DNA of 64,000 bases, from contig DAOVJY010000005.1 of NCBI GenBank assembly GCA_030632085.1, positions 37,476-101,475 of the forward strand, in the 5' to 3' direction. The first letter of the stretch is position 1. Every line of letters starts with the position of its first letter. The translations under genes were made by a program, and so were the position numbers. This document shows, piece by piece, positions 39,054-60,458 of this stretch. The DNA comes from Candidatus Omnitrophota bacterium (GTDB lineage Bacteria; Omnitrophota; Gorgyraeia; JAGLLT01). Below the pieces are notes generated by a model. That model was not told the origin of the DNA. It searched no databases and saw nothing but the letters and a program-made list of their open reading frames with translations.

Positions 39054-39122
39054 TTTAACCCCCCTTAATGACTACATGATTTACGAAAATCTTTGATTTT
39101 CTTAAATCGTTTGTAGGAATTA

Positions 39123-40512: not shown

Positions 40513-40527
40513 GAGGAGGGGCCAACC

Positions 40528-42582: not shown

Positions 42583-42583
42583 C

Positions 42584-45118: not shown

Positions 45119-45252
45119 CCTGAAGGGAAAAAGGGGGAAATGGGAACAGGCCTAATTAATATTGCTAAAATAATTGACAGGAATTTTAGAAAACAGTAGC
45201 CTTGGTAAAAAAAGTAATTATTGTGTCCCCGGATTCTGCAACGAACCTTTAA

Positions 45253-46518
45253 ATGGTGCGGTTTAATATGACAAAAAAGTTGGTGCAAAGACAATTTACT
45301 GTTGTTGACCTTTTTGCGGGAGCAGGAGGATTGCTTGAGGGATTCAGGAGGAAAGGGTTCAATATAATTTCTTCTGTCGAAATGAATTCCCATGCCTGCG
45401 ATACGCTCAAGACCAGACATACTTATTGGGATTATAAGGTAAAGAAAAAGCAAAGCGCATATTGGGATTATGTGCAGAAAAAAATCACCAGAGAAGTATT
45501 CCTGAATGGTTTGCCGGAAAACGCAGTTATAAATGTAGAGATTTCTCCCAAAACTATAAATGAGATTTCTCGACGGATTAGAGAGCAAATGAAGGAGATG
45601 AATGTATCTTCTATTGATGTTTTTATCGGAGGTCCTCCCTGTCAGGCATATTCCCTTGTAGGGAGAGCGCGAGACCCCAAAAGCATGAAGGATGACCCAA
45701 GAAAACAGCTATATAAGCACTATGTTCAATTACTGAAAAAGTTCATGCCTGAAGTCTTTGTGTTCGAGAACGTGCCGGGAATACTTTCAGCTGATGGTGG
45801 CGCATTATTTGAAGAGGTAAAGAAATATTTTGGAAAAGCAGGATACGTTGTTGAGCACAAAAAGCTGATTGCTTCTGACTTTATGGTTCTTGAGAACAGA
45901 AAAAGGGTTATATTAATTGGCTGGAAAAAGGATCGTGATCTGAAATATCCAGAGTTTAAACCCAAAAAACATGATTATCTTACAGCAGAATTATTTAAGG
46001 ATTTACCTCCACTAAACCCCGGAGAGGGTAGTGATGTTTCAGAGTACGTTAATAACGTATCAGATTATCTGAAGAAATCAAAAATTAGACATATAGAGCC
46101 CGTGCTTACGCACCACGTGACGAGGCCAATTAATGATAATGACAGAGAGATTTATAAAGAAGCTCTTGTTTTGTGGGAAACAGAAGGGAAAAGGCTTAAT
46201 TACGCTGATCTGCCAGAGAAACTAAAAACACATAAAAACCAGGCTTCGTTTCTTGACAGATTCAAAGTAGTAGCCGCTAATGAAGCAGCATCACACACAG
46301 TTGTTGCACACATCGCAAAAGACGGACACTATTATATACATCCAGACATCAAACAGCTAAGGTCAATAAGCGTCCGAGAAGCAGCACGAATACAGTCTTT
46401 TCCAGATAACTACTTTTTTGAGGGTCCGAGAACTGCAAAACTTGCCCAGATAGGAAATGCAGTGCCACCGCTTATGGCAGAAGCTATTGCTGGTAAGATA
46501 AAGGAGATGTTGAAATGA
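45253..46518 (+). CDS. dcm: DNA (cytosine-5)-methyltransferase
   Basis: Motif I FAGAGG, motif IV GGPPCQAYS, motif VI ENV, motif X QIGNAVPP. Confidence 0.9.
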   Translation: MVRFNMTKKLVQRQFTVVDLFAGAGGLLEGFRRKGFNIISSVEMNSHACDTLKTRHTYWDYKVKKKQSAYWDYVQKKITREVFLNGLPENAVINVEISPKTINEISRRIREQMKEMNVSSIDVFIGGPPCQAYSLVGRARDPKSMKDDPRKQLYKHYVQLLKKFMPEVFVFENVPGILSADGGALFEEVKKYFGKAGYVVEHKKLIASDFMVLENRKRVILIGWKKDRDLKYPEFKPKKHDYLTAELFKDLPPLNPGEGSDVSEYVNNVSDYLKKSKIRHIEPVLTHHVTRPINDNDREIYKEALVLWETEGKRLNYADLPEKLKTHKNQASFLDRFKVVAANEAASHTVVAHIAKDGHYYIHPDIKQLRSISVREAARIQSFPDNYFFEGPRTAKLAQIGNAVPPLMAEAIAGKIKEMLK

Positions 46519-48629
46519 AGGGAAATAAATTTCGGACACGTGCCAGACTTATTCAACAATTAGGTCTTCAGTTAATCAAGAATGAGGGTATTGCGCTTTT
46601 GGAATTAGTTAAAAATTCTTATGATGCAGATGCTTCATTTTGTACAGTAGAAATGAATAAGGTTAATATTCCTCAAAAGGGTTCTATTGTTATTACAGAT
46701 GATGGAGAGGGGATGGATGACGATATTTTACGCTCTGCCTGGCTTGAGATTGGGACAAGTCACAAAGAAGAATTAGCCTCTAATCCGGAAACCAAACGTA
46801 CAGACAAATTCAAGAGATTACGTTTAGGAGAAAAGGGAATTGGGAGACTTGGAGTTCATAGATTAGGGAAGTTTATAAAAATTATTACTAAAAGGGGCGA
46901 ATATGAATATGTTCTCGAAATTGATTGGGACAAATTTGAGCAAAAAAAATATATAGAAGATGTTGAGATTGTTATAAAAAGGCGTACTCCTGAAATCTTT
47001 GAGAAAAAAGAATCAGGGACAAAGATCATTATTACTAAATTACGAATTGCTTGGACACGAAAAAGAGTGCGTGAGTGTTGTAGGGCAATCACTTCTTTAA
47101 ATTCCCCTTTTCAGGACAAAACATCATTCAAGGCAACTCTTAATATTGATAATAAAGATTGGATAAAGGGATTGCTTGATTTTAATAATATTAAAAAATA
47201 TAAACTTTTTGAGTTTTCAATATGCATGGAAAAAAATGAGATAACAGAATTCAATTATAAATTTATTCCGTGGAGTACAATGCCTAAGTTAAAAGTGAGG
47301 CATATTACCAAGGATAACAAAGAAATAAAGTCTGTGCTGAGAATGGTATATAAAGATAAGGAAACTAGAGAATATCAAGATATAGATTTGTCAAAGCATA
47401 AAATTGGTCCAGTTCAATTTAAAGGTGTGATCTTTGATAGAGATGCGCGTGTTTTAGAATTGGGAGTTCAAGATAAAAGCGGTTTAAAGAAATATTTAGA
47501 TGCAAATGGGGGTATTAGGGTTTTTAGAGACAATATGCGCGTACTGGATTATGGTGAGCCAGGGAATGATTGGCTTGACTTGGGCGGAAGACGTGTTAAT
47601 GTTCCAACAAAAAGAATAAGTAATAACATTATAATTGGGGGAGTTTTTCTCAATCGTGCTAAAAGTAGTGACCTTAAAGAAAAAGCTAACAGAGAAGGGT
47701 TCCTTGAAGATGATGCTTATGATGAACTTGTTAAAGCAGTCCTCTATGCAATAGATAAGCTTGAAACATTCAGAAAGACAGATAAAGATTTATTAAGAAA
47801 ATATTATGGCCCTCAAAAAAATATTGAGCCAGTAATCACATCAATTGCAGAGCTAAAAGATATTGTTGAAAAAAATGTTAAAGAGAAAAATGTCCAGAAT
47901 ACGATCAATGTATACCTTGACCGTATAGAGCAGGATTATGAACGAATTACTGAAAGCTTAATTAAAAGTGCCGGAGCTGGATTAAATCTTATCGTTGTGA
48001 TACATCAGATAGAGAAAATAATTAAAGATATTAAAGCTGCACTTAAAAGTAAGGCGGTTAATAAAAGTATTTTGGGAAGAGTTGAAGATCTTGCTTCTCT
48101 TGTCGAAGGATATAGTATTCTCATAAAAAATTCTGAAAAAAAAGAGCGCAACTTAAAAGGTATAATAAATCAGTCATTATTTAATACAAAATTTCGCTTT
48201 GAAGCGCATGGCATAAATGTTAGGAAAGAATATGAGTCAAAAAGAAAGGGATTTGATGCTATTTGTTCGGAAGGACACGTTTTGAATGCCCTGATGAATC
48301 TTTTTGATAATTCTATATGGTGGCTGGGATATTCAAAAACTAAAAATCCAGAAATTTATATCGATGTTTCTGATGCAGTGCCTGGGGGCTATGTAAGCAT
48401 TATTATTGCAGATAATGGCCCGGGTTTCTCAATGCCGGTAGAAGAGCTTACGAAACCATTTGTGAGTAATAAGCCGGGAGGTATGGGAATAGGACTTCAC
48501 CTTACAAATGAAATCATGAAGTCTCTAAAAGGAAGATTGGTTTTTGATGTGGAGGAGTATTTTGATATACCGTCTAAATATAAAAATGGTGCAGTAATCG
48601 CTCTGGCATTTAAGAAAGAGGAGAAATGA
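46515..48629 (+). CDS. Dual Bergerat-fold ATPase: N-terminal MutL/MORC-type GHKL domain and C-terminal histidine-kinase-type HATPase_c domain
   Basis: N-terminal ELVKNSYDADA, DDGEGM, GEKGIGRLG; C-terminal NALMNLFDNS, IADNGPGF, GGMGIGLHL. ATGA start-stop overlap with dcm. Confidence 0.6.
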   Translation: MKGNKFRTRARLIQQLGLQLIKNEGIALLELVKNSYDADASFCTVEMNKVNIPQKGSIVITDDGEGMDDDILRSAWLEIGTSHKEELASNPETKRTDKFKRLRLGEKGIGRLGVHRLGKFIKIITKRGEYEYVLEIDWDKFEQKKYIEDVEIVIKRRTPEIFEKKESGTKIIITKLRIAWTRKRVRECCRAITSLNSPFQDKTSFKATLNIDNKDWIKGLLDFNNIKKYKLFEFSICMEKNEITEFNYKFIPWSTMPKLKVRHITKDNKEIKSVLRMVYKDKETREYQDIDLSKHKIGPVQFKGVIFDRDARVLELGVQDKSGLKKYLDANGGIRVFRDNMRVLDYGEPGNDWLDLGGRRVNVPTKRISNNIIIGGVFLNRAKSSDLKEKANREGFLEDDAYDELVKAVLYAIDKLETFRKTDKDLLRKYYGPQKNIEPVITSIAELKDIVEKNVKEKNVQNTINVYLDRIEQDYERITESLIKSAGAGLNLIVVIHQIEKIIKDIKAALKSKAVNKSILGRVEDLASLVEGYSILIKNSEKKERNLKGIINQSLFNTKFRFEAHGINVRKEYESKRKGFDAICSEGHVLNALMNLFDNSIWWLGYSKTKNPEIYIDVSDAVPGGYVSIIIADNGPGFSMPVEELTKPFVSNKPGGMGIGLHLTNEIMKSLKGRLVFDVEEYFDIPSKYKNGAVIALAFKKEEK

Positions 48630-49918
48630 TGCAGTTATCTAAAAATGGGAAAGTTGTGATTGTCGATAATGTTTTTACAGAAGCTAAACCTTTACTTGAT
48701 GTTTTAAATATGAACCAAATCCCCTATTTATATTTTGATGGTAAGGTTGATTCTTTACCTGAAACTCCTTGCAAAGGGATTAGATTTGTTTTTCTTGATA
48801 TAGCTTTGGAAGGAATGGATGGCGCAGATACAAAAACAAAAGCTTCAGCAATCGTAGGGATATTAGAAAAAATTATTTCGAAGGATAATGGTCCTTATGC
48901 GATTATTTTCTGGACAAAACATCCCGAAGTTATTGAAAGAACTCTTAAAAACTGTCAAATAAGGGGAATAAAGCCTGTAATTTCACTTGATCTAGATAAA
49001 TCAGAATGTAAAGAAGGTGAGACGTACTCTCTTAAGGCGATTTTAGAAAAATTAAAAACAAAGGCAGAAAAATTGGGTCCATATAGTTTATATATAATGT
49101 GGGAAAATATAGCTGCTGATTCAGGGACTGAATTTATTAACAGTTTTGCTAACATCTTTGAATTTGATGATAACTGGAGTGAAAACACAAGGCATCTTTT
49201 TTATCGTCTATATAAGGCTTATACTGAAAAAAATGAGGTTTCAGATGATAAAGACAAGATATTGTGCGTTCTGCAACTCATTAATCGAAGCTTTAAGGAT
49301 TTGCTAGATAATAATACTGTTAACTGTAGAGAAAAATTAAATTTATTTGAATTCCCATCGACTCCTACTGACGAAGAAGAAAAGAGGACTTTTTCCCAGA
49401 AAATCAATGAAATAATTTCCGATGAAATAATCGCTAAAATAAATAATAGTCTTTTTATTATTGATAATCCTGATTTCTCGCAATTATCCACAGTTGTTTT
49501 TAAATATGCTGACGAAGAATTGAAAAATATTTTTTTGGATAAATGTTTTGAAAAGATTTCAGAAGTAGCTAAAGCATCTGCCCAACTTTGTCGTCTTGTG
49601 ATAACACCTCAATGTGATATATGTCAAGATAAAGCCATATTGCATAGAGTCCTGTATGGAATTATTTTCAACGAAGATGATGCCACTAAATGTAGAAAAG
49701 GGCCGTTATTTCCTTTTGGTCCCTTTTATTTCCATGATAGTTCCAAGTCGATAGTTTTTCACTTGCAATCAATAACTACTTGTAAGAAAGATGAATTGTG
49801 TTCTAAAGAGGTGTTATTTGGACTACGAAAAGATTTATTTTTTGATATACAGGCCAATTCTGCAAATCATGTTAACCGACATGGTAATTTTGCAATAAAA
49901 AAGCAATTTAAAATATAA
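48626..49918 (+). CDS. Uncharacterised protein with receiver (CheY)-like N-terminal domain and unknown Cys-rich C-terminal domain
   Basis: VVIVDN...RFVFLDIALEG...IIFWTKHPE resembles REC beta1/beta3/beta4 elements (inference); ATGA overlap with upstream ATPase gene. Confidence 0.35.
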   Translation: MMQLSKNGKVVIVDNVFTEAKPLLDVLNMNQIPYLYFDGKVDSLPETPCKGIRFVFLDIALEGMDGADTKTKASAIVGILEKIISKDNGPYAIIFWTKHPEVIERTLKNCQIRGIKPVISLDLDKSECKEGETYSLKAILEKLKTKAEKLGPYSLYIMWENIAADSGTEFINSFANIFEFDDNWSENTRHLFYRLYKAYTEKNEVSDDKDKILCVLQLINRSFKDLLDNNTVNCREKLNLFEFPSTPTDEEEKRTFSQKINEIISDEIIAKINNSLFIIDNPDFSQLSTVVFKYADEELKNIFLDKCFEKISEVAKASAQLCRLVITPQCDICQDKAILHRVLYGIIFNEDDATKCRKGPLFPFGPFYFHDSSKSIVFHLQSITTCKKDELCSKEVLFGLRKDLFFDIQANSANHVNRHGNFAIKKQFKI

Positions 49919-49919
49919 C

Positions 49920-50093
49920 GTGGTTATTGTGCATGTATTCAACTTTGAAAATAGTGTCAGAAATAAATTATTTTTATGGTTTAAGAAAAATGCACGTTCA
50001 TTTCCATGGCGAACTATTAAAGACCCCTATCGTTTGATGGTTGCCGAGTTCATAAAAAAAGGGGTCAGAGTCATTTTTCATTCTGGTAGATAA
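49920..50093 (+). pseudogene. N-terminal fragment of a MutY/Nth-family (HhH-GPD) DNA glycosylase
   Basis: Translation ...LFLWFKKNARSFPWRTIKDPYRLMVAEFI then degenerates and stops; matches N-terminal signature of MutY/Mig-type glycosylases. Not in ORF track. Confidence 0.35.
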
Positions 50094-50495
50094 ATGTTGT
50101 ATCGCCAGATTTTCGCATGTTCCCAGATTTATTGGGATGTGTCCCTATTAAAATGGAGATAGGGGGCGATTCTATTTTAAAATAGTATGTGTTTTGATAA
50201 AAATTAATTTAAAAGAAGTGTAGAATCAGAGGGGACACAATACTAATTTTAGTAATAAAACAGAAGGCAAATAATAAATAGGTATCGTGTCACCAGATTT
50301 TTAGAAAATACATAATTGTTAGGAAGAATTTCCGCAAAACAACTTTGTCGATAAAATATTTTTCCAAAAAGCCAAGTATTTATTCTTTATATTAAAACGA
50401 CTTATCAAGCAAAAGCTAGCTTCAAATTCACATAATGTCTGATTATAGGATCCTGAGGTTCTTATTTATATTTTGTTTCCCTTTATCTAACTCCG

Positions 50496-52355
50496 TTGTA
50501 TAATAAAAAGAAAAATGGAGGAAAAATGTATATAAAACGAATCGTTATAAAGAATTACCGAAATTTAAAAGATATAGACCTTTCCTTTGGCGCAGGGTTA
50601 ACTTGTATTGTAGGTGAAAACAATTCTGGAAAAAGTAATTTTTTACATGCAATACGGTTGGCCTTAGACATGAATCTGCCGTATTATGTTAGACAGTTAA
50701 CAGAAGATGATTTCGCCAAAGAAGTAGACTTCAGCGTGCCACAACAGATTGTGGTAGGAGTACAATTTACGGATTTTTTTTCAGGTGCAGATGACGATAA
50801 GGTAAAGGAGCACGCTCTAGCGCAAGAGTGGGGTTTGGACGGGGAAACAGCACAAGTATGTTATCGGTTTAGACCTAAAGGTTCAGTGCGTAGGAATATA
50901 GCTTCTGGTGAGCGTGAACCAAAAAATTTAACCATAGAGGATTATGATTCAGAACTAGTAGCTGGGCCGATAGTTTGTGAAGACGGAGGCACAAAAGATT
51001 TGTCAGAGGTTTGTTGGGACGATGATTTTTCAACAGCTGTAAAATTTAATAGGCTATCAACGTATCGAGTAGCATTTTTACAACCTATTCGAGATGTTGA
51101 AGATGATCTGCGCCGACAAGCACGCTCCCCATTGTATAAGCTGATAAAAGTATCGGATATGTCTGATGAAAAGAAAAAAGAACTAATAAAAAAGATAGAT
51201 GATGTAAATAAAGAGATATCATCTGAAGCGGAAATCCAACAAATTGCTCAAGACATAGATGATTCCTTCAGTGCAGCGGTAGGCTCTATATTTAAAATGA
51301 ATACAAAGATAGGCATGATGTCGCCAACCTTTAGAGACATCACCCGCTCTTTAAAAATTTTACTGTCCGGACAGGGGCTGGAAGAGGCGAATATTTCTAG
51401 AAATGGGTTAGGGTTAAATAATATTTTATACATGAGTATGTTGTTGGAATATTACAAGAAACAAGGGGAGCAAGAAGATACCGCTGGCGAATTATTGTTG
51501 ATTGAAGAACCAGAGGCGCATCTACATCCCCAACTGCAAAGAGTCTTGCTGGGAAGATTAGAAAACAAAGAATGTCAAATAATCACGACCAGTCATAGTA
51601 CGCATATTACTTCACGTGTGGATTTAAATGAAGTGATAGTTTTTACGCGAAATACGGAGTATGAGATATCAGCTAAAAGATTGAGTGATAACAATTGGTC
51701 GTCTGATAACGATAAGGATGATTTGGAGAGATATATAGATGCTACAAAATCAGTTTTGTTATTTGCTAAAAAGGTTATTCTGGTAGAGGGAATGGCAGAA
51801 GTTTTCCTGATTCCTTTTTTAGTGAAAAAGATCAAAGAAATAGATCTAGAAGAGCATGGCATATCAATAGTTCCCATTCACGGCGTTCATTTTTCTTCAT
51901 ACTTAAAACTTTTTGGAAATGAAGCTATAAAAAAGAAATGTGCAGTTATAACCGACGGGGATCTAAGGCCTAGCGATTCATTTAATTCGGAAGAGGGGGA
52001 TTTCCCAAGAGTAGATTCTTTGAGAGATTTTGAAAATGACTTTGTAAGGATATTTCATTGTGGAACAACATTTGAAATAGAAACCGCATCTCCCAGCAAT
52101 TTAAAGATGTTCGCAAGTTCAGCTAATGAGCTAGGAGCGCCGCGAGTGGCGAAAGATCTAATGGAAAGCTATAAAAAGAAAAGTGAATTATCTGCGAAAG
52201 AAAAACTAGAAATGAGTAAAAAAGTTTTGAACACCGCAAAAAGGTTTGGTAAGGCACGATATGCACAGATATCATCACGGTATTCACAGTATGCCGAAGA
52301 ATTACCGACATATTTAGATAATGCAATTGATTGGTTGATAGATGAAGCTGACTAG
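50496..52355 (+). CDS. gajA: OLD-family ATP-dependent nuclease (GajA-like: ABC-type ATPase + Toprim)
   Basis: Walker A GENNSGKSN, Walker B LLLIEEPEAHLHP, Toprim residues VILVEGMAE and ITDGD; probable true start ATG 50526 with GGAGG RBS. Confidence 0.8.
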   Translation: MYNKKKNGGKMYIKRIVIKNYRNLKDIDLSFGAGLTCIVGENNSGKSNFLHAIRLALDMNLPYYVRQLTEDDFAKEVDFSVPQQIVVGVQFTDFFSGADDDKVKEHALAQEWGLDGETAQVCYRFRPKGSVRRNIASGEREPKNLTIEDYDSELVAGPIVCEDGGTKDLSEVCWDDDFSTAVKFNRLSTYRVAFLQPIRDVEDDLRRQARSPLYKLIKVSDMSDEKKKELIKKIDDVNKEISSEAEIQQIAQDIDDSFSAAVGSIFKMNTKIGMMSPTFRDITRSLKILLSGQGLEEANISRNGLGLNNILYMSMLLEYYKKQGEQEDTAGELLLIEEPEAHLHPQLQRVLLGRLENKECQIITTSHSTHITSRVDLNEVIVFTRNTEYEISAKRLSDNNWSSDNDKDDLERYIDATKSVLLFAKKVILVEGMAEVFLIPFLVKKIKEIDLEEHGISIVPIHGVHFSSYLKLFGNEAIKKKCAVITDGDLRPSDSFNSEEGDFPRVDSLRDFENDFVRIFHCGTTFEIETASPSNLKMFASSANELGAPRVAKDLMESYKKKSELSAKEKLEMSKKVLNTAKRFGKARYAQISSRYSQYAEELPTYLDNAIDWLIDEAD

Positions 52356-54114
52356 AGAACAGGTAAACGCTGTAAAATGTAGTAGCAATGTTGCTTTGGA
52401 ATCTTGTCCAGGAAGCGGAAAGACAAGAACCATTGTGGCGAAGCTTTTAGAATGCCTGGATGACGTCAGACAAACTACAAGAATGATTAGTTGTATAACA
52501 TATTTGAACTCAGCTGTAAATGAAATTAATCACAGATTAAGTAGTTGTATAACTCATGAAGAGCTAGAAGATTATTATGAGATAGGAACGATACATTCTT
52601 TTTGCCTGAGGAATATCTTTCGGCTAAATTATTGGAGGATAGATAAGTTTTCAGGAGGGTTTGCGATTATAACGCCAGACGATGATGAGTATAAAGAATT
52701 TGTTAGCAATATTATTGAGAATAATTCTCTCGACCCAAAATCATTCGATGACTTCAGCTTTTTGGTGAGAGAAGGCAAGATTTCGGGTAGGATGTCAGAT
52801 AAAGCCGCAAAAGAGTATTGGGAATATCTAGATGATAATAATTTAGTGGACTTTAACGATATAATATATTATTCAGCATGTCTAATACGGGAGAATGAAT
52901 ATATTATCGCTGGTCTCTCAGCAAAATATGCATGGATTTTAGTAGATGAATTTCAAGATACATCTATCCATCAAAAAGAGATCCTCAAAGCTATTTCAGA
53001 TTATAAAAGGACAAAGTTTTTTATTGTAGGGGATCCCTGTCAATCGATTATGGGTTTTGCTGGAGGAAGTTCGCTCTTAATGAAGCAGTTTTCAAAGGAG
53101 ATAGTTGCAAAGAATGATTTTTCATTAACGGGTAATTTCCGGAGTTCCAGTAGAATAATTAATTGTGCTGAAGAATTGCTTCCTCGTGATCCAAAAATGG
53201 ACGCAGTTGGAGAAAATAAATATTATAATCATAGCCCATTATGGATAAGAGCATGTGATTCCTTTTCTGGAATAGATGAATATTTTCTTCCAGCAATTAA
53301 GGAACATAATATTTCTTTAGGAGAATGCGCAATTTTAGCTCCAAATTTTTATATTTTCTTAAAGTTGGCTCCTAAAATGAGAGAAGCTGGCATATCTATA
53401 CTTGGTCCAGGATCACGCCCATACCGTAGGTCAAATCACATAATAGCTCCTTTAATTGAAGAGGTTTGCTTATTTATAGAAACACAGGACATAAAACAGA
53501 TAAAGATTATCCGATATAAAATTTTGGATGTAATTACTATATGCGAAGATAAAGTGGACAAAGATTTCTTTACGTTAAAAGGTGATATTGCTATCTTAAA
53601 AATATTGAACGCAGCAAAGAACTTAAAGAACAAAAATGTAAATGCTAAGCAATTTATTGTATCTTTTTCAGAAGAAATTGCTTCGTTGTTGCATGAGAGA
53701 GGATTCATAAAAAAAGAGGCCATAAGTCATATAGCGACCTCTGGGAAAGGATTAGTTTCTGATATAGAGGAACATTGTTCTGGCGATCCGTATAGTGGAG
53801 ACAATTTAACTATAGAAGATTTAAGCTTATTTAGTATCAATTCTGAGAGCATTAAATTATTAACCTTGCATAGGGCCAAGGGGAGGGAGTTTGATGCTGT
53901 AGCTGTAATATGCGTTCATGATGGATTGATTCCTTATGGCGCCCCTTATGCTGGTAGCGATGAGGAAAATGAATCAAGGCGCTTATTTTATGTTGGCATG
54001 ACAAGGGCTCGTAAATTGCTAATGTTTTTTACAGAGGTGAGGAACCTTAGGAGTCCTTCTCGTTTTCTGACAGAATTATTCCCAGCTGGTCCACACATAA
54101 TAGCTGACGTCTAA
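52342..54114 (+). CDS. gajB: UvrD/PcrA-like SF1 helicase (GajB-like)
   Basis: Walker A GSGKT, DExQD-type LVDEFQDTS, motif III GDPCQSI, motif VI YVGMTRARK; 14-nt overlap with the OLD nuclease gene. Confidence 0.8.
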   Translation: MKLTREQVNAVKCSSNVALESCPGSGKTRTIVAKLLECLDDVRQTTRMISCITYLNSAVNEINHRLSSCITHEELEDYYEIGTIHSFCLRNIFRLNYWRIDKFSGGFAIITPDDDEYKEFVSNIIENNSLDPKSFDDFSFLVREGKISGRMSDKAAKEYWEYLDDNNLVDFNDIIYYSACLIRENEYIIAGLSAKYAWILVDEFQDTSIHQKEILKAISDYKRTKFFIVGDPCQSIMGFAGGSSLLMKQFSKEIVAKNDFSLTGNFRSSSRIINCAEELLPRDPKMDAVGENKYYNHSPLWIRACDSFSGIDEYFLPAIKEHNISLGECAILAPNFYIFLKLAPKMREAGISILGPGSRPYRRSNHIIAPLIEEVCLFIETQDIKQIKIIRYKILDVITICEDKVDKDFFTLKGDIAILKILNAAKNLKNKNVNAKQFIVSFSEEIASLLHERGFIKKEAISHIATSGKGLVSDIEEHCSGDPYSGDNLTIEDLSLFSINSESIKLLTLHRAKGREFDAVAVICVHDGLIPYGAPYAGSDEENESRRLFYVGMTRARKLLMFFTEVRNLRSPSRFLTELFPAGPHIIADV

Positions 54115-54262
54115 TTATACCCACACAATAAAAACTTGTATATAGAGAGATAATGAGGAAAAAATCTATTTTCCTTGATTTTCTATTCGTATTTATTATA
54201 TATAACCGTCTCTTTTGTTCTCAAAGTGATGATACTAAGAATTCCAGAAGCACAATATCTAA

Positions 54263-54466
54263 CTAACCAACAACATTTTTTTTAACATAAATTTCAAAGA
54301 TACCGTTTCTTAGCCTTGTCCCATGTATTTTTGACTTCGGGATCCAGATTTTCATGCCGTTATCTACCAATATAGCTTTATCAGTCTCATGTAAGATGCG
54401 GACTTGAATCCAGATGTATTTTTCGTCAGGGTATAATAGTCTATAAATGTTGAATGGCCGGGGCAT
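54263..54466 (-). CDS. Small hypothetical protein
   Basis: 67-aa ORF directly downstream of the HTH ORF on the same strand; no recognisable motif. Confidence 0.2.
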   Translation of the reverse strand: MPRPFNIYRLLYPDEKYIWIQVRILHETDKAILVDNGMKIWIPKSKIHGTRLRNGIFEIYVKKNVVG

Positions 54467-54470
54467 AGGG

Positions 54471-54668
54471 TTATCTCCTTTTAAATTGACAGGCTTTTTT
54501 GGCAGTATTCTTGCCTATTTTTAAAGCTTTGGCTATTTGCTTGTAAGTCATTCCCAGTAAATGCAATTCACTTGCTTTTTGGGCTAATTTTTGGTATAAA
54601 TAGATTCGTTGGGCGGGTTGAATCTTGATATGAGCCGATATTTCAGCAATAGTTCGAATTGGTTGCAA
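54471..54668 (-). CDS. Small HTH protein, possibly a transposase N-terminal fragment
   Basis: HTH-like LGMTYKQIAKALKIGKNTAKK; only 65 aa, at the distal edge of the island. Confidence 0.25.
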   Translation of the reverse strand: MQPIRTIAEISAHIKIQPAQRIYLYQKLAQKASELHLLGMTYKQIAKALKIGKNTAKKACQFKRR

Positions 54669-54696
54669 CCGCGTCCGCCATTATAGCAAAGAGCCC

Positions 54697-54724
54697 GTAG
54701 TGTAGAGCGTAGGGCAAAGATAGA
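54697..54724. repeat. Copy of dispersed TAGAGCG-core repeat
   Basis: GTAGTGTAGAGCGTAGGGCAAAGATAG followed by CCAAAAAAAGGATTTTAAGGGAAAAGAT; about 70-75% identical to 56738-56830. Confidence 0.45.
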
Positions 54725-54855
54725 TTGCGCAGGGACGAGAACCCAAAAAAAGGATTTTAAGGGAAAAGATTGCTCCCTCTCCTCAGGGGTTTAGGCTTCT
54801 ACTTTAAGGTAATTAAATAGCGCGTTCCTCGATTTTTTGCAAAAATAGGAGGTGC

Positions 54856-55308
54856 TTGATGAAGCAGTTTTTTAAATGTGCGATAGGCGCAAGTGTGGTT
54901 TTATTTATGTTAATTTCCGGGGTATGTGCCCAAGATCAAAACCCGATTGCGATTTTCTACGGCGGCTTAGCTGATATTATTCAAGAAAACATGAATTCAC
55001 CGCAGCAATGTGTTGCTGAAGCTGAGAGTTTTATTGATGTTAATATCGGCCCTCTCCAGAGAGCTATGCAGCGGGGCGCGCAGATGTCTCGATCCGACAG
55101 CCACAAGCAAATGGATGAAAGTCAATTCCAAGCCTCTCTGGAACAAATGGGCAAGTTGATGTCCCAAGACGGCGGAATACAAGCCATGAATAGGTATGTG
55201 GACGCCATTACTATTTTTGGAGACAAGTACCCTGAGTACGCAGAACAAATTATGATTAAACTAAACAGCCATAGCCAAGAACAATTTCAGGGATTTAAGG
55301 ATTATTAG
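54856..55308 (+). CDS. Secreted hypothetical protein
   Basis: Signal peptide MMKQFFKCAIGASVVLFMLISGVCA; Gln/Met-rich; no family recognised. Confidence 0.4.
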   Translation: MMKQFFKCAIGASVVLFMLISGVCAQDQNPIAIFYGGLADIIQENMNSPQQCVAEAESFIDVNIGPLQRAMQRGAQMSRSDSHKQMDESQFQASLEQMGKLMSQDGGIQAMNRYVDAITIFGDKYPEYAEQIMIKLNSHSQEQFQGFKDY

Positions 55309-55360
55309 CCAGGGTAAATATAGGGATACAATGCTTAATCATCCAACAACGCTTTCCTAA

Positions 55361-56338
55361 ATGAGACCTGAAGAAAGGATTGATAGTATGTACAGACCGG
55401 AAATAAAAGCATTAGATTGCACCATCAGGGACGGAGGCCTCATTAATAATCACAACTTTGACCATAAATTCGTCAAAGAAGTTTATAAAGCTATTTCCGC
55501 TTCAGGGGTAGATTATATTGAATTAGGCTACAAGAATTCTAAAGAGCTTTTTTCGTCCAATGAATACGGTTATTGGAAGTTCTGTGAAGATGACGAAATT
55601 AAAAAGATTAAAGAAGGAGTTGAGTCAGATACAAAAGTAGCAGTTATGGTAGATGTTGGCCGAGTTAAATTGGATGACGTAAAACCGGCCTCCGAAAGCC
55701 CGGTTGATATGATCAGAACAGCTACTTATGTTAAGGATATTGATAAAGCCATATTTATGGCTAATCATTTTTATGAAAAAGGGTACGAGACTACACTTAA
55801 TATTATGGCTATTTCTCGTGATAGCGGTCCCGAGCTGACAGATGCCCTGGAACAGATAGAACGAGAAAGTAATGTAATAGCTGTGTATATAGTTGATAGT
55901 TTTGGTGCCTTGTATCAGGAAACAACCGAAGAGTTAGTGAAAAGATATAAAAAAATCCTTAAGAACAAGGAAGTCGGCTTTCATGGGCACAACAACCAGC
56001 AACTTGGTTTTGGTAATACCATCGAAGCCATCATTCATGGAGCGAACTATCTTGATGCCACAGTTTACGGCATAGGGCGCGCTGCCGGCAATTGTCCGCT
56101 AGAACTATTGGTTGGTTTTCTTAAAAATCCCAAATTTGATATACGGCCTATTTTAGACTTAATTGCAAAAGAGTTTATTCCTTTAAGAGAAAAGCTGGAA
56201 TGGGGATATATTATTCCTTATGCTATTTCAGGTATGATGGGCGAACACCCAAGGGCCGCTATGGCTCTTCGAAAAAGCGACAAGAAAGAAAATTACCGCG
56301 AGTTTTATGAAAGCCTGACTAATACAGGGCTAGACTAA
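55361..56338 (+). CDS. HMGL-like/DRE-TIM aldolase-family protein
   Basis: N-terminal LDCTIRDGG resembles the TxRDG motif of pyruvate-carboxyltransferase/HMGL-like TIM barrels; likely start MYRPE at 55388. Confidence 0.45.
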   Translation: MRPEERIDSMYRPEIKALDCTIRDGGLINNHNFDHKFVKEVYKAISASGVDYIELGYKNSKELFSSNEYGYWKFCEDDEIKKIKEGVESDTKVAVMVDVGRVKLDDVKPASESPVDMIRTATYVKDIDKAIFMANHFYEKGYETTLNIMAISRDSGPELTDALEQIERESNVIAVYIVDSFGALYQETTEELVKRYKKILKNKEVGFHGHNNQQLGFGNTIEAIIHGANYLDATVYGIGRAAGNCPLELLVGFLKNPKFDIRPILDLIAKEFIPLREKLEWGYIIPYAISGMMGEHPRAAMALRKSDKKENYREFYESLTNTGLD

Positions 56339-56340
56339 CC

Positions 56341-56532
56341 ATGGATATAAATCAGTTCAAGCAACTTCCTATCATGGGAATATTGCGCGGAATTGATGAA
56401 GAATCTATTACTCCCCCTACCGAAAGCATTATTTCTTCAGGCCTCAAGACGGTTGAAATCACAATGAACACTACTGGCGCTGCATCTTTAATTAAAAAGA
56501 TGGACGAGTTCGAGATCCAATTTGCTTGTTAA
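56341..56532 (+). pseudogene. Truncated KDPG/KHG aldolase (Eda-like) N-terminal fragment
   Basis: LPIMGILRG...TVEITMNT matches Eda N-terminus; ORF ends after 63 aa where the tRNA leader repeat begins. Confidence 0.45.
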
Positions 56533-56607
56533 AATTGTACGTAAAATATCTCTCACCTACTTTTGATAGGTTCGAGATCCAATTTGTTTGTTAAAATTGT
56601 ACAAATT
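56511..56607 (+). repeat. Second copy of the tandem tRNA leader repeat
   Basis: GTTCGAGATCCAATTTGCTTGTTAAAATTGTAC occurs twice, matching 37171-37294. Confidence 0.5.
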
Positions 56608-56695
56608 GGAGAGATGGCAGAGCGGTTGAATGCGGCGCATTCGAAATGCGTTGTGCCGAAAGGTACCGGGGGTTCGAATCCTCCTCTCTCCGCCA
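56608..56695 (+). tRNA. tRNA-Ser (anticodon CGA)
   Basis: Acceptor GGAGAGA/TCTCTCC, anticodon loop TTCGAAA, long variable arm, T-loop TTCGAAT, ends GCCA. Confidence 0.85.
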
Positions 56696-56737
56696 CCGTA
56701 CCACGTAGGGTACGGTGCGCGCATTGTAACAAAGAAC

Positions 56738-56763
56738 GTACAGTATAGAGCGTAAGATAAAAG
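56738..56763. repeat. Copy of dispersed TAGAGCG-core repeat downstream of tRNA-Ser(CGA)
   Basis: GTACAGTATAGAGCGTAAGATAAAAG ... CCAAAAAAAGGGCTTTAGGGGAAAAGAT, homologous to 54697-54790. Confidence 0.45.
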
Positions 56764-57286
56764 TAGAATGTTTTGGGATGAGAATCCAAAAAAAGGGCTT
56801 TAGGGGAAAAGATAATTTTCCCTTATTGGCGAAGTTTACTTTTTCAGCGGGAGGAAAGAAAGTATTAAAAGGAGGCAATTAAAATGAAAAGATATGGTTG
56901 GATGATTGGATGAACTGTAATTTTCAGTGCAGGCATGATGATGGCAATAGAATATGTTCCTGAGAATGTTTGGCAACAGGTTGTACAAACGTTGAATTTT
57001 ACAAATACATTGTTGCTTGTTTCAGTAGTGTTGCAAGCTGGGATTTTAGCGAACTTAAAAAACTAAAACTATATATCTGTAGGAGAAAAAAACTTTTTAG
57101 GGCTTGGAGAAAACATGAATGTTTATTTTGAAACTGATGAGGGAAAAATTTTAATAAGAGATTACATGCAGGCATTTCCTATAATCCAAGTAAAGGGCGT
57201 AACGTTTATTATATCGATAGTTGCATCAATTTTTGTTTCAATAGGTATTGTTTTATTTTTTCACGTTTTGTAGATAAATAGTTTTT

Positions 57287-57320
57287 GTGTCCACACAACA
57301 CCAAAACAACGGCAAACAAA
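57287..57320. repeat. Left copy of ~33-bp direct repeat flanking the HTH/ImmA module
   Basis: GTGTCCACACAACACCAAAACAACGGCAAACAA versus right copy GTGCCCACACAACCAAAACAACGGCAAACAA. Confidence 0.5.
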
Positions 57321-57444
57321 ACATCTGACCGGTCTATTTGCTTGACATTATTTGTTACATTGTGTATGGTTATTATATACGTTGTAACAATTATACAACA
57401 TATGGGTATTTTCTAAAAACAAAAAGGGTAGGGGGTGAGCTATT

Positions 57445-57819
57445 ATGGCGAAGGAATCTTTTGGAGATTTGCTAAGGAAACTAAGACTAAAAAAGGGATA
57501 TGGGTTAAGGTCGTTTGCAAAGAAAATCAACTGGCTTCCATCTAATCTCAGCCATTTGGAAACTGGAAGAATTAATCCTCCGAGAGACAAAAAAATGCTG
57601 TATCATATTGCAAAAGCACTTGATCTTAAAAAGGGTTCTAAAGAGCAGAATCGCTTCTTTGACCTTGCGGTGGATGATGTGCCAGATCGACTGCCTGCTG
57701 ACATAACAGAGTATGTGAATGAACACTCTTTAGCTCCTGTTATGCTAAGAACAGTCGCTAATAAGAAGCTTACAAAATTTCAGATTCAAAGATTGATTAA
57801 AGATATAAAAAATATGTAG
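57445..57819 (+). CDS. XRE-family HTH regulator (ImmR-like)
   Basis: HTH LRSFAKKINWLPSNLSHLETGR; preceded by TTGACA-17-TATGGT promoter overlapping a GTTACA...TGTAAC palindrome. Confidence 0.7.
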   Translation: MAKESFGDLLRKLRLKKGYGLRSFAKKINWLPSNLSHLETGRINPPRDKKMLYHIAKALDLKKGSKEQNRFFDLAVDDVPDRLPADITEYVNEHSLAPVMLRTVANKKLTKFQIQRLIKDIKNM

Positions 57820-57820
57820 A

Positions 57821-58423
57821 ATGAAAAAATCTAAAATTCAAATCTATGATGTCCTTACCTTAGAAGAAATCGCAAAGGCTTTTCTAGATAAATATGATAA
57901 CTCAGACAGTCTTGAAGTTGATATAGAATATATCATTGAAAACAAGTTAGAATGGAAAATCATAGGTGTTTCTTTCTTAAGGGAAAAGTATTGTATTGAA
58001 GCATATTTTAATAAAAATAAAGAACTCTATGTTGATTCATTCCTTATGGATTCTAGGGAAAGGAGATATCGTTTTACTTTAGCTGAAGAAGTGGCCCATC
58101 ATATAATTCATCGTGATATATATGCACAGTGTGCTAATTTGGAGGAGCATCTCGAAATATATGGTAAAATAACAGCAAATGAATATCACAGCATGGAAAG
58201 AAATGCTAAGTATTTAGCTTCAGCAATAATTATGCCTAGTATTTCATTTGAAAAACAAGCAATAAAAATTTGTAAAAAAATTAATAAGAAAGAATATGAA
58301 ACTAATCAGGAAGTATTGTATAAAATAGCATTAACTTTATCAAATGATTTTAATGTAAGTGATGAGGCTGCAAGAATAAGATTTATAAAATTAGGATTGC
58401 AGCAAAAACTAATAACCCTATAA
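57821..58423 (+). CDS. ImmA/IrrE-family zinc metallopeptidase
   Basis: HExxH motif (EEVAHHIIH) in a ~200-aa protein directly downstream of an XRE regulator. Confidence 0.65.
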   Translation: MKKSKIQIYDVLTLEEIAKAFLDKYDNSDSLEVDIEYIIENKLEWKIIGVSFLREKYCIEAYFNKNKELYVDSFLMDSRERRYRFTLAEEVAHHIIHRDIYAQCANLEEHLEIYGKITANEYHSMERNAKYLASAIIMPSISFEKQAIKICKKINKKEYETNQEVLYKIALTLSNDFNVSDEAARIRFIKLGLQQKLITL

Positions 58424-58445
58424 ATTATAATTTTGTGCCCAAATT

Positions 58446-58479
58446 GTGCCCACACAACCAAAACAACGGCAAACAAGCC
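58446..58479. repeat. Right copy of direct repeat flanking the HTH/ImmA module
   Basis: See 57287-57320. Confidence 0.5.
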
Positions 58480-58589
58480 TATTTTTGTAAATTGTAATCA
58501 CAAGCGCGGCTGCGTAATCTGTTCGAGGCGAAGCCTCGAACAAAATACATAAAAAAATAAAAAGCTTACAGCTATCAGCTTTCAGCAAA

Positions 58590-58629
58590 GATAGCGTTTA
58601 GCATAGAGCGCGTAGCGGATAGGAAAAGC
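58590..58629. repeat. Copy of dispersed repeat core with flanking CAGCTATCAGCTTTCAG
   Basis: GATAGCGTTTAGCATAGAGCGCGTAGCGGATAGGAAAAGCAAAAAAACAAG matches the reverse complement of 17900-17955 inside the giant gene. Confidence 0.5.
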
Positions 58630-58719
58630 AAAAAAACAAGAAATAAGAAACAAGTCACAAATCGGAAAACAAAAGAACATATCCGAAACGCGGCGGTTCA
58701 GATACAGGCCAAAGAAGAA

Positions 58720-59364
58720 ATGAAAAAAACGGTCGCTGTCCCTATTAAAACTAAAAAAATGAAAGTTTTATTTCTCACAATCCTAATTGGCCTGGTACCT
58801 TTGATTGTTTTGGCTGAGCAGCCCGATATTACAACTCAGGTTGGCCCTGAACGTTCAGAAGAAACTGAAAAGCCTGAGGGCTCAGACTTAAGCATGGAGC
58901 AAATAATGCAAGAATTAGAACGAGTAAAAGAACAATTAAAAAATGTTGGAAAGACACATGACCAATTAGAAATTGACCGCCGGAAATTAGGACGACTTAT
59001 CATAGATAACAATGAGTTTTTCACTCTCAGGGTAATGGAGAATATCGCCACAGCCTGTAAATTGTTTCGCGCGGATCAAGAACTGCAAACTTTTCCCAGA
59101 AGATTTAGAGATTTAGAAGATTATGTTTCCGAGGACATAATCAATGCTACCAATTCCTCCAAAGCTATCCACGGGTATTATTATCAATATAATTTTATAA
59201 ATAAAGATAGATTTAGGCTAAAGGCCATTCCCGCTACTAAAGGTAAAACGGGAGAGAGGACATTTGTTTTTGATGACGCGGGCGGCATTATCAACGAGGA
59301 GACAGGCAGACCCGTAAGTCTAAAGAAAGAGAAAGACAAACAAAAATCAGGAGGAACAAAATGA
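58720..59364 (+). CDS. Secreted hypothetical protein
   Basis: Signal peptide/TM (VLFLTILIGLVPLIVLA); no family recognised. Confidence 0.4.
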   Translation: MKKTVAVPIKTKKMKVLFLTILIGLVPLIVLAEQPDITTQVGPERSEETEKPEGSDLSMEQIMQELERVKEQLKNVGKTHDQLEIDRRKLGRLIIDNNEFFTLRVMENIATACKLFRADQELQTFPRRFRDLEDYVSEDIINATNSSKAIHGYYYQYNFINKDRFRLKAIPATKGKTGERTFVFDDAGGIINEETGRPVSLKKEKDKQKSGGTK

Positions 59365-60065: not shown

Positions 60066-60169
60066 CACTGCTGAAGGCGGGCTTCGCTTGACAAAGTTTA
60101 TTGTATATGCTATAACTATAACATATACTAAAAATATAGTGGTGAGCTAACTCATCAACAAAAAATTAA

Positions 60170-60391
60170 ATGGAGAATGGGATGTTGATTTCTTCACAGG
60201 AGATTGTTGAAAAACATAATATTTCGTATCAGACGCTAAATTACTATACAGGCCTTGGCTTTTTGGTAGTGAGAAAGAGAAGGGGTAACGGAAGGCTGTA
60301 TAATCAGGGAGAGGTTGAAAAAAATTTAAAGAGAATTGCAGAATTAAAAGATCAAGGCTATCCCTTGAGACTTATCTGTAAGATGCTGTAA
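60170..60391 (+). CDS. Small MerR-type HTH DNA-binding protein
   Basis: HNISYQTLNYYTGLGFL matches the MerR-family HTH pattern. Confidence 0.55.
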   Translation: MENGMLISSQEIVEKHNISYQTLNYYTGLGFLVVRKRRGNGRLYNQGEVEKNLKRIAELKDQGYPLRLICKML

Positions 60392-60458
60392 AGGGCGGCT
60401 GTTACAAAAAAAGCAATGCGTAAAATATAACATTTTTGCGGGGAGCAATAATTGAGAG

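What the first reader, a model, noticed from the sequence alone, without database searches (positions are those of the whole stretch)
50496..54114. Gabija-like two-gene system (OLD-family nuclease + UvrD-like helicase)
The first protein has ABC-type ATPase motifs plus Toprim residues (VILVEGMAE, ITDGD) like GajA/class-2 OLD nucleases. The second is an SF1 UvrD-type helicase like GajB, and the two genes overlap by 14 nt. Both are somewhat longer than typical GajA/GajB.
Basis: partly seen in the sequence, partly recalled or inferred. Interest (0 to 1): 0.5.

Follow-up and report, generated by a model that had tools for sequence, protein, structure and literature searches.

The report
Ordinary two-gene Gabija anti-phage system
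The two overlapping genes are an intact Gabija-type phage-defence pair (a Class 2 OLD nuclease plus its UvrD-like partner) inside a 23.5-kb island of defence genes in an uncultured bacterium; this is a new member of a very common, well-described system.

Summary
Two co-directional ORFs, gajA-like (most likely ATG 50526 to 52355, 609 aa) and gajB-like (52342-54114, 590 aa), overlap by 14 nt. The quoted motifs VILVEGMAE and ITDGD are present. Both proteins match PADLOC Gabija models end to end: GajA PDLC00092 at 684 bits and GajB PDLC00130 at 564 bits. Every ABC-ATPase motif and every Class 2 OLD catalytic residue is present and invariant in the subfamily (E421, E425, G453, D477, D479, T515, E517, K576). 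All SF1 helicase motifs are present. The helicase is not housekeeping: it scores 150-160 bits against PcrA/UvrD/Rep models whose cut-offs are 900-1150, it has a shortened separation pin, and it lacks the UvrD C-terminal tail. Only these two genes are conserved across related loci, and 75 of 78 related loci keep the helicase immediately downstream. The pair lies in a 23.5-kb insertion (36970-60458) that close relatives lack, next to restriction-modification systems. One nuance: this subfamily is far from the B. cereus reference. GajA is nearer to the B. pseudomallei Class 2 OLD, and GajB is nearer to Rep/UvrD than to B. cereus GajB, so biochemical details may differ.

The parts
50526..52355 (+). 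gajA: Class 2 OLD-family nuclease, 609 aa (the longest ORF starts at TTG 50496; ATG 50526 is preferred)
   Evidence: PADLOC GajA PDLC00092 at 683.8 bits, residues 1-606 on model positions 1-603 of 604. Pfam AAA_15 plus OLD-like_TOPRIM. The AF2 model (pLDDT 80.5) has B. cereus GajA structures as its top Foldseek hits, E 2.8e-22. RBS GGAGG upstream of the ATG. The same 609-aa gene call is made on contig L001.
50526..51695 (+). GajA N-terminal ABC-type ATPase domain with inserted helical (dimerisation-like) region, residues 1 to about 390
   Evidence: Walker A GENNSGKS (K36, nt 50631-50633), signature-like NGLGLNN 293-299, Walker B/catalytic Glu IEEPE 326-330, H-loop SHSTH 356-360. It aligns to B. 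cereus GajA residues 1-94 and 148-338.
51705..52352 (+). GajA C-terminal Toprim domain with the Class 2 helical insert, residues 394-609
   Evidence: The subfamily profile aligns over the whole B. pseudomallei Class 2 OLD C-terminal region, 6nk8, E 3e-26. Catalytic set: E421/E425 (nt 51786-51800), G453, D477/D479 (nt 51954-51962), T515/E517, K576. All are invariant in A1 and correspond to BpOLD E400/E404/D455/D457/T506/E508/K562 (PMC6755086) and BcGajA E379/G409/D432/D434 (PMC10781630).
52342..54114 (+). gajB: SF1A UvrD-like helicase/ATPase partner, 590 aa; overlaps gajA by 14 nt
49919..50525 (+). 607-nt AT-rich non-coding spacer upstream of gajA; presumed promoter/regulatory region of the two-gene operon (inferred, not shown)
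   Evidence: No ORF of 60 aa or more. No Rfam match. Promoter-like sites are no more frequent than in shuffles. Only weak repeats. It separates Gabija from the upstream methylase cluster.
36970..60458 (.). 23.5-kb variable genomic island that carries the Gabija pair and other defence genes
   Evidence: Relatives with 82-84% identical GyrB (L082-L084) are collinear up to window position 36969 (L082; the L083/L084 nucleotide matches end at 36831) and again from 60459, with only about 145 nt between the flanking genes. GC drops to 0.32-0.36 at 46-54 kb. Contents: serine recombinase, RadC, type III-like RM, m5C methylase/GHKL cluster, Gabija, CapH/CapP-like pair.

Best explanation
This is a complete, apparently functional Gabija (Class 2 OLD) anti-phage system, carried on a horizontally acquired defence island of an uncultured bacterium whose GyrB is nearest to Candidatus Omnitrophota. 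gajA and gajB are translationally coupled through a 14-nt overlap. By analogy with solved Gabija complexes, they are expected to assemble into a GajA-tetramer/GajB hetero-oligomer. GajA cleaves DNA with its Toprim domain by two-metal catalysis: E421/D477/D479 at metal A, E425/T515/E517 at metal B, and K576 at the scissile phosphate. Its ABC-ATPase domain acts as the nucleotide-binding regulatory or sensor module. GajB is an ATP-driven SF1 motor/(d)NTPase that acts on or senses DNA ends. It probably does not unwind processively like UvrD, because the separation pin is truncated and no GIG motif is evident. The outcome is cleavage of invading linear phage DNA, or blocking of its circularisation. 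What is shown here: gene structure, domain and motif integrity, family membership by profile and by fold, conserved pairing, and the island context. What is inferred from B. cereus, B. pseudomallei and P. aeruginosa work: complex formation, the cleavage chemistry in vivo, the trigger, and the anti-phage phenotype.
For: End-to-end PADLOC GajA and GajB matches. Pfam architecture AAA_15 plus OLD-like_TOPRIM, and UvrD-helicase plus UvrD_C. The subfamily profile hits TsOLD (9e-33), BpOLD and XccOLD Class 2 C-terminal regions (3e-26, 1e-24) and B. cereus GajA (2e-24), with catalytic residues aligned. All catalytic and ATPase residues are present and invariant, as defined in PMC6755086 and PMC10781630. 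The top structural neighbours of the GajA model are B. cereus GajA chains. All GajB helicase motifs are intact. Only the two genes are conserved among the 8 closest genome loci, with gene junctions from small overlaps to a few nt. In 75 of 78 related loci with room downstream, a UvrD-like ORF follows directly on the same strand. The pair is located in an island absent from close relatives and packed with RM genes. The family is large: 582 representatives at 50% clustering with E<=1e-30, and 159 plasmid records, 100 of them conjugative. By definition, Class 2 OLD next to a UvrD-like helicase equals Gabija (PMC10568477).
Confidence: 0.9

Rival explanations
1. The pair is a DNA-repair or replication-associated OLD nuclease plus UvrD/Rep-type helicase doing a housekeeping job, not a defence system.
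For: The helicase model is structurally nearer to Rep/UvrD/PcrA than to B. cereus GajB, and the subfamily profile scores higher on Rep/PcrA/UvrD (about 200 bits) than on BcGajB (115 bits). Earlier literature speculated that OLD proteins act in repair or replication (quoted in PMC8136825). The locus lies about 24 kb from dnaA.
Against: Scores against the housekeeping equivalog models are 6- to 10-fold below their cut-offs. The separation pin is truncated and the C-terminal extension is missing. The genes lie in a 23.5-kb island that relatives with 82-84% identical GyrB lack entirely, so they are dispensable. The neighbours are RM systems and a recombinase. Homologues are frequent on conjugative plasmids.
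Confidence: 0.04
2. The two genes are part of a larger multi-gene system together with their neighbours: the upstream m5C methylase/GHKL ATPase/430-aa gene cluster, or the downstream 150-aa ORF.
For: All genes from 39742 to 56338 are on the same strand in one island. The 430-aa and 150-aa proteins have no family assignment.
Against: In the 8 closest genome loci only gajA and gajB are shared; no flanking ORF recurs. A 607-nt non-coding gap separates gajA from the upstream cluster, and a 741-nt gap separates gajB from the next ORF. The upstream genes overlap one another (46515/46518, 48626/48629) as a separate unit.
Confidence: 0.04
3. The locus is a decaying, non-functional remnant.
For: Some related loci from MAGs show split gajA or gajB ORFs (L008, L009).
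Against: Here both ORFs are full length, match their models end to end, and retain every catalytic and nucleotide-binding residue.
Confidence: 0.02

Closest known systems
Gabija (GajA/GajB) of Bacillus cereus VD045 (PDB 8SM3, 8J4T, 8JQB, 8TJY)
   Same: Two-gene operon in the same order. GajA is an ABC ATPase plus a Toprim domain with the E...DxD active site (window E421/D477/D479 correspond to Bc E379/D432/D434). GajB is an SF1A UvrD-like protein with Walker A and a DExQD box. The GajA model's best structural neighbours are BcGajA chains.
   Different: The sequence relationship is very remote: there is no phmmer hit, and only 12-17% identity in structural alignment. GajA is 609 aa versus 578 aa. 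GajB is 590 aa versus 494 aa and is structurally closer to Rep than to BcGajB. It is untested whether the site-specific, NTP-inhibited nicking of BcGajA applies here.
Class 2 OLD nucleases of Burkholderia pseudomallei and Xanthomonas campestris (PDB 6NK8, 6NJV; Schiltz et al. 2019, PMC6755086)
   Same: These are the closest solved relatives of the nuclease half: about 44% identity over the 86-residue Toprim core (my count on the alignment). The profile alignment covers the whole C-terminal region, including the helical insert and the GK(G/A)R(F/Y)AQ lysine motif. The full two-metal residue set and the catalytic lysine are conserved. [quoted passage not shown]
   Different: Only their isolated C-terminal regions are solved. 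Their defence phenotype is unknown. BpOLD is reported as a non-specific, ATP-insensitive nuclease whose ATPase hydrolyses ATP. This behaviour may or may not hold for the window protein.
Gabija of Pseudomonas aeruginosa PA14 (Hong et al. 2025 preprint, PMC12407980)
   Same: A gajA-gajB pair carried on a mobile island. Both genes and their ATPase/Toprim/DExx residues are required for broad defence. The native upstream region is regulatory.
   Different: The sequence relationship to the window proteins was not measured because I did not have the PA14 sequences. The mechanism proposed there (targeting linear DNA lacking RecBCD) presupposes a RecBCD-type complex, and whether this organism has one is unknown.
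Class 1 OLD (P2 Old, Thermus scotoductus OLD 6P74) and Class 3 retron Eco8 OLD
   Same: The same ABC-ATPase plus Toprim architecture. TsOLD is the best sequence hit in PDB. Eco8 OLD appears among the structural neighbours.
   Different: Class 1 proteins are stand-alone genes without the Toprim helical insert. Class 3 proteins are linked to a retron RT/ncRNA. Here there is a helicase partner and the Class 2 insert, and no RT or ncRNA.
Housekeeping UvrD / Rep / PcrA
   Same: The same SF1A fold with all seven helicase motifs, and the best structural match for GajB.
   Different: The protein is about 130 aa shorter, the 2B region is reduced, no GIG motif counterpart is evident, the separation-pin hairpin is 6 residues shorter, and the C-terminal extension is absent. 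It falls far below the NCBIfam equivalog cut-offs.

Membership tests
Gabija (PADLOC/DefenseFinder sense) = Class 2 OLD system | GajA: N-terminal ABC-type ATPase with Walker A, signature, Walker B and H-loop | tested here: met
   K36, NGLGLNN 293-299, IEEPE 326-330, H357/H360. All are invariant or nearly invariant in A1. Pfam AAA_15, AAA_21 and SMC_N.
Gabija (PADLOC/DefenseFinder sense) = Class 2 OLD system | GajA: C-terminal Toprim domain with an invariant Glu, an invariant Gly and a DxD motif | tested here: met
   E421, G453 and D477-x-D479 align to BcGajA E379, G409 and D432/D434. Pfam OLD-like_TOPRIM 9e-21.
Gabija (PADLOC/DefenseFinder sense) = Class 2 OLD system | Class 2-specific helical insert in the Toprim region carrying the metal-B ligands (T, E) and the catalytic Lys | tested here: met
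   T515, E517 and K576 are invariant. The profile aligns across the whole BpOLD C-terminal region including the GKGRFAQ motif. The residues are as defined in PMC6755086. The model shows helices 516-605.
Gabija (PADLOC/DefenseFinder sense) = Class 2 OLD system | GajB: SF1 UvrD/PcrA/Rep-like protein with Walker A and a DExQD box | tested here: met
   GSGKT 24-28 and DEFQD 202-206, plus motifs III-VI. Pfam UvrD-helicase 3e-41 and UvrD_C 7e-22.
Gabija (PADLOC/DefenseFinder sense) = Class 2 OLD system | gajA immediately upstream of gajB on the same strand, as a two-gene module | tested here: met
   14-nt overlap. Only these two genes are conserved in the 8 closest loci. The pair is conserved in 75 of 78 related loci.
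Gabija (PADLOC/DefenseFinder sense) = Class 2 OLD system | Match to curated Gabija profile HMMs | tested here: met
   PDLC00092 at 683.8 bits and PDLC00130 at 564.1 bits, both end to end. The PADLOC/DefenseFinder programs themselves, with their system rules, were not run.
Gabija (PADLOC/DefenseFinder sense) = Class 2 OLD system | GajA4:GajB4 supramolecular complex | not testable with these tools
Gabija (PADLOC/DefenseFinder sense) = Class 2 OLD system | Protection against phage that requires both genes | not testable with these tools
   This needs an experiment. The only indirect support is the defence-island context.
B. cereus-type GajA biochemistry | Site-specific nicking that is inhibited by NTP/dNTP, with no ATP hydrolysis | not testable with these tools
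   The sequence cannot decide this. The nearest characterised relative, BpOLD, behaves differently (non-specific, ATP-insensitive, hydrolyses ATP).
Housekeeping UvrD/Rep/PcrA | Score above the NCBIfam equivalog cut-off | tested here: not met
   pcrA 160.7 versus 911; DNA helicase II (NF008743) 154 versus 965; uvrD (TIGR01075) 150.9 versus 1144; rep (TIGR01074) 149.1 versus 951.
Housekeeping UvrD/Rep/PcrA | Full-length separation pin, GIG motif in 2B, and C-terminal extension | tested here: not met
   Alignment A4 with E. coli UvrD shows a 6-residue deletion at the pin, no conserved counterpart of RGIGDRT, and no C-terminal 70 aa. The alignment within 2B is of low reliability.
Class 1 OLD (stand-alone) | Single gene without a helicase partner | tested here: not met
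   A helicase partner overlaps the gene by 14 nt.
Class 3 OLD (retron) | Adjacent reverse transcriptase and msr/msd ncRNA | tested here: not met
   No RT domain in the neighbours. No Rfam retron hit in 49800-56800. NCBIfam retron_eff_Eco8 scores 60 versus a cut-off of 250.

The most novel reading that the evidence does not exclude
This BpOLD-like GajA / Rep-like GajB lineage (PADLOC PDLC00092/PDLC00130) may be a mechanistically distinct branch of 'Gabija'. It could be a non-specific, ATP-hydrolysing processive nuclease coupled to a still-active SF1 translocase, rather than the NTP-inhibited site-specific nickase plus non-helicase (d)NTPase described for B. cereus. If so, conclusions from the B. 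cereus paradigm would not transfer to a large share of annotated Gabija systems.
Probability: 0.3. Interest if true: 0.35.

Novelty: new member of a known kind. Interest (0 to 1): 0.15.

Why it matters
On its own it matters little. Gabija is among the most common defence systems, reported in 8.5-15% of genomes (PMC10568477), and this pair is recognised end to end by existing models. There are two modest points of value. First, it documents an intact Gabija on a variable defence island in a poorly studied, uncultured lineage near Candidatus Omnitrophota, only about 10 kb beyond the dnaA-dnaN-gyrBA-serS core block. Second, it belongs to a sub-lineage that is only remotely related to the B. cereus reference and closer to the B. 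pseudomallei Class 2 OLD, for which phage-defence data are lacking. Such members are reasonable candidates for testing how general the competing Gabija mechanisms are.

Tried and rejected
1. A single-sequence phmmer search of GajA against PDB does not find B. cereus GajA even at E<=10. A 37-sequence profile was needed to reach it, at 2e-24.
2. The housekeeping-helicase idea was rejected on NCBIfam cut-offs, the alignment with UvrD, and the island context.
3. I looked for a conserved third gene in the 8 closest loci and found none.
4. An Rfam scan of 49800-56800 found only the tRNA-Ser.
5. The sigma-70 promoter and terminator scan of 49800-55000 found no more sites than in shuffles (14 versus 19.6 expected; 2 versus 2.8), so no promoter or terminator is claimed.
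6. A repeat search of the two flanking intergenic regions found only weak AT-rich matches.
7. I looked for att-like direct repeats bounding the island. The only long repeat is the pair of tRNA-Ser genes with their upstream elements, and it does not coincide with the island ends defined by synteny.
8. The organism could not be named. The exact proteins carry no source name, and the nearest named GyrB proteins are Candidatus Omnitrophota at about 65% identity.
9. The first python attempts stopped on parsing errors. The output printed before the error was still usable, and one search was repeated.
Full report
**Observation.** The region holds two long co-directional ORFs on the + strand, 50496-52355 (619 aa from a TTG) and 52342-54114 (590 aa from ATG).
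- They overlap by 14 nt, 52342-52355.
- The first gene most probably starts at ATG 50526 (609 aa). A GGAGG lies 6 nt upstream. The 37-sequence family alignment begins at the equivalent MYISR. The gene call on the identical public metagenome contig (L001, ENA ERZ23498525) is 609 aa.

**Identity of the first protein.**
- Against PADLOC-DB it matches a GajA model over its full length: PDLC00092, 683.8 bits, residues 1-606 on model positions 1-603 of 604, E 5e-206. About twenty further GajA models follow.
- Pfam gives AAA_15/AAA_21/SMC_N at the N-terminus and OLD-like_TOPRIM at residues 412-479.
- As a single sequence, its best solved relatives are Thermus scotoductus OLD (6P74) and the C-terminal regions of the Class 2 OLD nucleases of Burkholderia pseudomallei (6NK8) and Xanthomonas campestris (6NJV). 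The B. cereus GajA chains are not found even at E<=10.
- A profile of 37 homologues (A1) reaches B. cereus GajA at 2e-24, TsOLD at 9e-33 and BpOLD at 3e-26.
- In those alignments, window E421/E425 align with BcGajA E379/E383, and D477/D479 with BcGajA D432/D434. Walker A K36 aligns with BcGajA K35.

**Catalytic residues of the first protein.**
- The literature defines the Class 2 OLD catalytic set as E400, E404, D455, D457, T506, E508 and K562 in BpOLD (PMC6755086). In BcGajA it is E379, G409 and D432/D434 (PMC10781630).
- The window equivalents are E421, E425, D477, D479, T515, E517 and K576, plus G453. All are present and invariant in A1.
- The ABC motifs are also intact: Walker A GENNSGKS, NGLGLNN, IEEPE and SHSTH.
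- An AlphaFold2 model (mean pLDDT 80.5, pTM 0.79) has B. cereus GajA chains as its best Foldseek hits in PDB: 8x5i, 8u7i and 8sm3, E 3e-22 to 3e-19, aligned over the full length. TsOLD follows, then the retron Eco8 OLD.

**Identity of the second protein.**
- It matches PADLOC GajB model PDLC00130 end to end: 564.1 bits, residues 1-578 on model positions 2-583 of 589. Pfam gives UvrD-helicase and UvrD_C.
- All SF1A motifs are present: GSGKT, TIHS, DEFQD, GDPCQSI, NFRS, GPGSRPYRR, LTLHRAKGREF and VGMTRAR.
  - NCBIfam equivalog models for PcrA, UvrD and Rep score 122-161 bits against cut-offs of 911-1168.
  - An alignment with E. coli UvrD (fetched; alignment A4) shows that the whole subfamily has a 6-residue deletion in the separation-pin hairpin between motif VI and PSRF. 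It also shows no conserved counterpart of the GIG motif, several deletions in 2B, and no C-terminal extension of about 70 aa.
  - Its closest homologues are all 547-640-aa proteins. Several share contigs with the GajA homologues, as shown by identical longest-contig lengths.
  - The gene is absent from close relatives of the organism (see below).
- The missing UvrD elements are the same ones reported missing in B. cereus GajB, which has no detectable helicase activity (PMC10681800).

**The pair as a module.**
- Eighty related loci were retrieved from GTDB species-representative genomes. Of these, 78 have at least 800 nt downstream of the OLD gene, and 75 of those carry a UvrD-like ORF directly downstream on the same strand.
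- In the eight closest loci (40-44% identity, from Planctomycetota, Myxococcota, Alphaproteobacteria and Cyanobacteria-related MAGs), only these two genes are shared. Their junctions range from small overlaps to a few nucleotides.
- The family is large. There are 3659 proteins at E<=1e-10 among the scored candidates. Among 50%-identity representatives, 582 have E<=1e-30 and 10,212 have E<=1e-3. There are also 159 plasmid records, 100 of them predicted conjugative.
- The best non-identical relatives are 60% (GajA) and 57% (GajB) identical.

**Context.**
- The window is the replication-origin region of a bacterial chromosome: yidC, dnaA, dnaN, gyrB, gyrA and serS, with a GC-skew sign change near 26-27 kb.
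- The nearest named GyrB proteins belong to Candidatus Omnitrophota at about 65% identity. Unnamed metagenomic relatives reach 82-91%.
- Three contigs from relatives with 82-84% identical GyrB (L082-L084) are collinear with the window up to position 36969 and again from 60459. Only about 145 nt lie between the two flanking genes there.
- Window 36970-60458 is therefore a 23.5-kb variable island. It carries the following:
  - two tRNA-Ser genes;
  - a serine recombinase and RadC;
  - a type III-like methylase/helicase-nuclease pair;
  - an m5C methylase with a GHKL ATPase (N-terminus weakly BbrUII/HgiDII-like) and a 430-aa unknown protein;
  - the Gabija pair;
  - a 150-aa unknown protein and an HMGL-like aldolase;
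  - an HTH/M78-peptidase (CapH/CapP-like) pair followed by two unknown genes.
- GC falls to 0.32-0.36 around the Gabija genes. This is a typical defence-island setting.

**Mechanism.**
- Shown here: an intact nuclease active site, intact nucleotide-binding sites in both proteins, tight gene coupling, and family membership.
- Inferred from characterised relatives:
  - GajA and GajB assemble, 4:4 in B. cereus (PMC10781630, PMC10822852).
  - The Toprim domain cuts DNA by two-metal catalysis (PMC6755086).
  - The ABC domain regulates cleavage. In B. cereus, NTPs inhibit a site-specific nickase (PMC8136825). BpOLD, in contrast, is a non-specific, ATP-insensitive nuclease (PMC10568477).
  - GajB contributes ATP/dNTP hydrolysis rather than classical unwinding (PMC10681800).
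- In P. aeruginosa PA14, Gabija is non-abortive. It blocks circularisation of injected linear DNA that is not protected by RecBCD (PMC12407980).
- The nuclease half of the window protein is much nearer to BpOLD (about 44% identity over the Toprim core by my count on the alignment) than to BcGajA. I therefore consider BpOLD-like, less sequence-specific cleavage at least as likely as BcGajA-like nicking. This cannot be decided from sequence.

[quoted passage not shown] Every sequence-testable defining feature is met. Complex formation and phenotype are untestable here. The locus is a new member of a known kind. The only mildly non-routine aspects are the host lineage and the remoteness of this sub-lineage from the B. 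cereus paradigm.

**Negative results.** There are no Rfam hits other than the tRNA, no promoter or terminator signal above background, no meaningful repeats in the flanking spacers, and no conserved third gene.

**Verdict.** Observation confirmed, interpretation supported, interest low (0.15).

Noticed in passing
window 36970-60458: A 23.5-kb block is absent from three contigs of close relatives (GyrB 82-84% identical), where the flanking 221-aa and AAA_22 genes are only about 145 nt apart. It is a variable island about 10 kb downstream of dnaA, made almost entirely of defence and mobility genes.
   Followed up: yes
window 37195-37382 and 56508-56695: Two tRNA-Ser genes (anticodons TGA and CGA) lie inside the island. 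Each is preceded by two copies (period 62 nt) of a 33-nt element, GTTCGAGATCCAATTTGCTTGTTGAAATTGTAC. There are 4 copies in the window against 0 expected by chance. The relatives' syntenic contigs have no tRNA at this position. The function of the element (tandem promoter, or recombination site?) is unknown.
   Followed up: partly
window 37368-39053 (-): A large serine recombinase (Resolvase + Recombinase + Zn_ribbon_recom) is encoded here. Its 3' end overlaps the last 15 nt of tRNA-Ser(TGA) on the opposite strand. It is a plausible integrase of the island, but no att-type repeats matching the synteny-defined island ends were found.
   Followed up: partly
window 40528-45118 (+): A type III-like restriction-modification pair: an N6/N4 methylase (684 aa; PADLOC MTase_II/MTase_III) followed, 1 nt later, by an 844-aa ResIII/SWI2-SNF2 protein with only weak REase_III and BPTD_3080-family matches. 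It is preceded by a RadC/JAB gene (39742-40512).
   Followed up: partly
window 45253-49918 (+): A three-gene overlapping cluster. It consists of an m5C methylase (best PADLOC hit DrmMII, 573 bits, end to end), a 704-aa protein with two GHKL ATPase domains whose N-terminus weakly resembles BbrUII/HgiDII restriction enzymes, and a 430-aa protein with no family match in Pfam, NCBIfam or PADLOC. It is possibly an atypical type II or ATP-dependent restriction system.
   Followed up: partly
window 57445-60065 (+): An HTH protein (124 aa) and an M78/IrrE-type peptidase (200 aa; PADLOC capP 5e-14) form a CapH/CapP-like regulator pair. They are followed by two overlapping genes (214 and 234 aa) with no family match. 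This is a candidate regulated defence module of unknown type.
   Followed up: partly
window 24245-36961: Chromosomal origin neighbourhood: yidC (-), dnaA, dnaN, gyrB, gyrA, a PilZ-like gene, serS and a 221-aa gene, with a GC-skew sign change near 26-27 kb. The nearest named GyrB relatives are Candidatus Omnitrophota (about 65% identity).
   Followed up: partly
window 14160-21605 (-) and 1045-13110 (-): There is a 2481-aa ORF in a stretch of raised GC (0.44-0.49). Nearby are three proteins of 1020-1148 aa with F5/8 type C (discoidin) domains, one of which also has a GH2 sugar-binding domain. They are probably secreted or surface carbohydrate-active proteins.
   Followed up: no
L008 5743-7799 and L009 6001-9542: In two related loci from MAGs, the gajA (and in L009 also gajB) reading frames are split into two ORFs. 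This could be pseudogenisation or assembly frameshifts.
   Followed up: no
L011 966-2873 and L024 9204-11024: There are two exceptions to the usual gajA-gajB junction. In L011 the stop-to-stop frame that carries the helicase match begins at or before the OLD match. In L024 the UvrD-like gene lies about 1.8 kb downstream of the OLD gene, which suggests an inserted gene.
   Followed up: no
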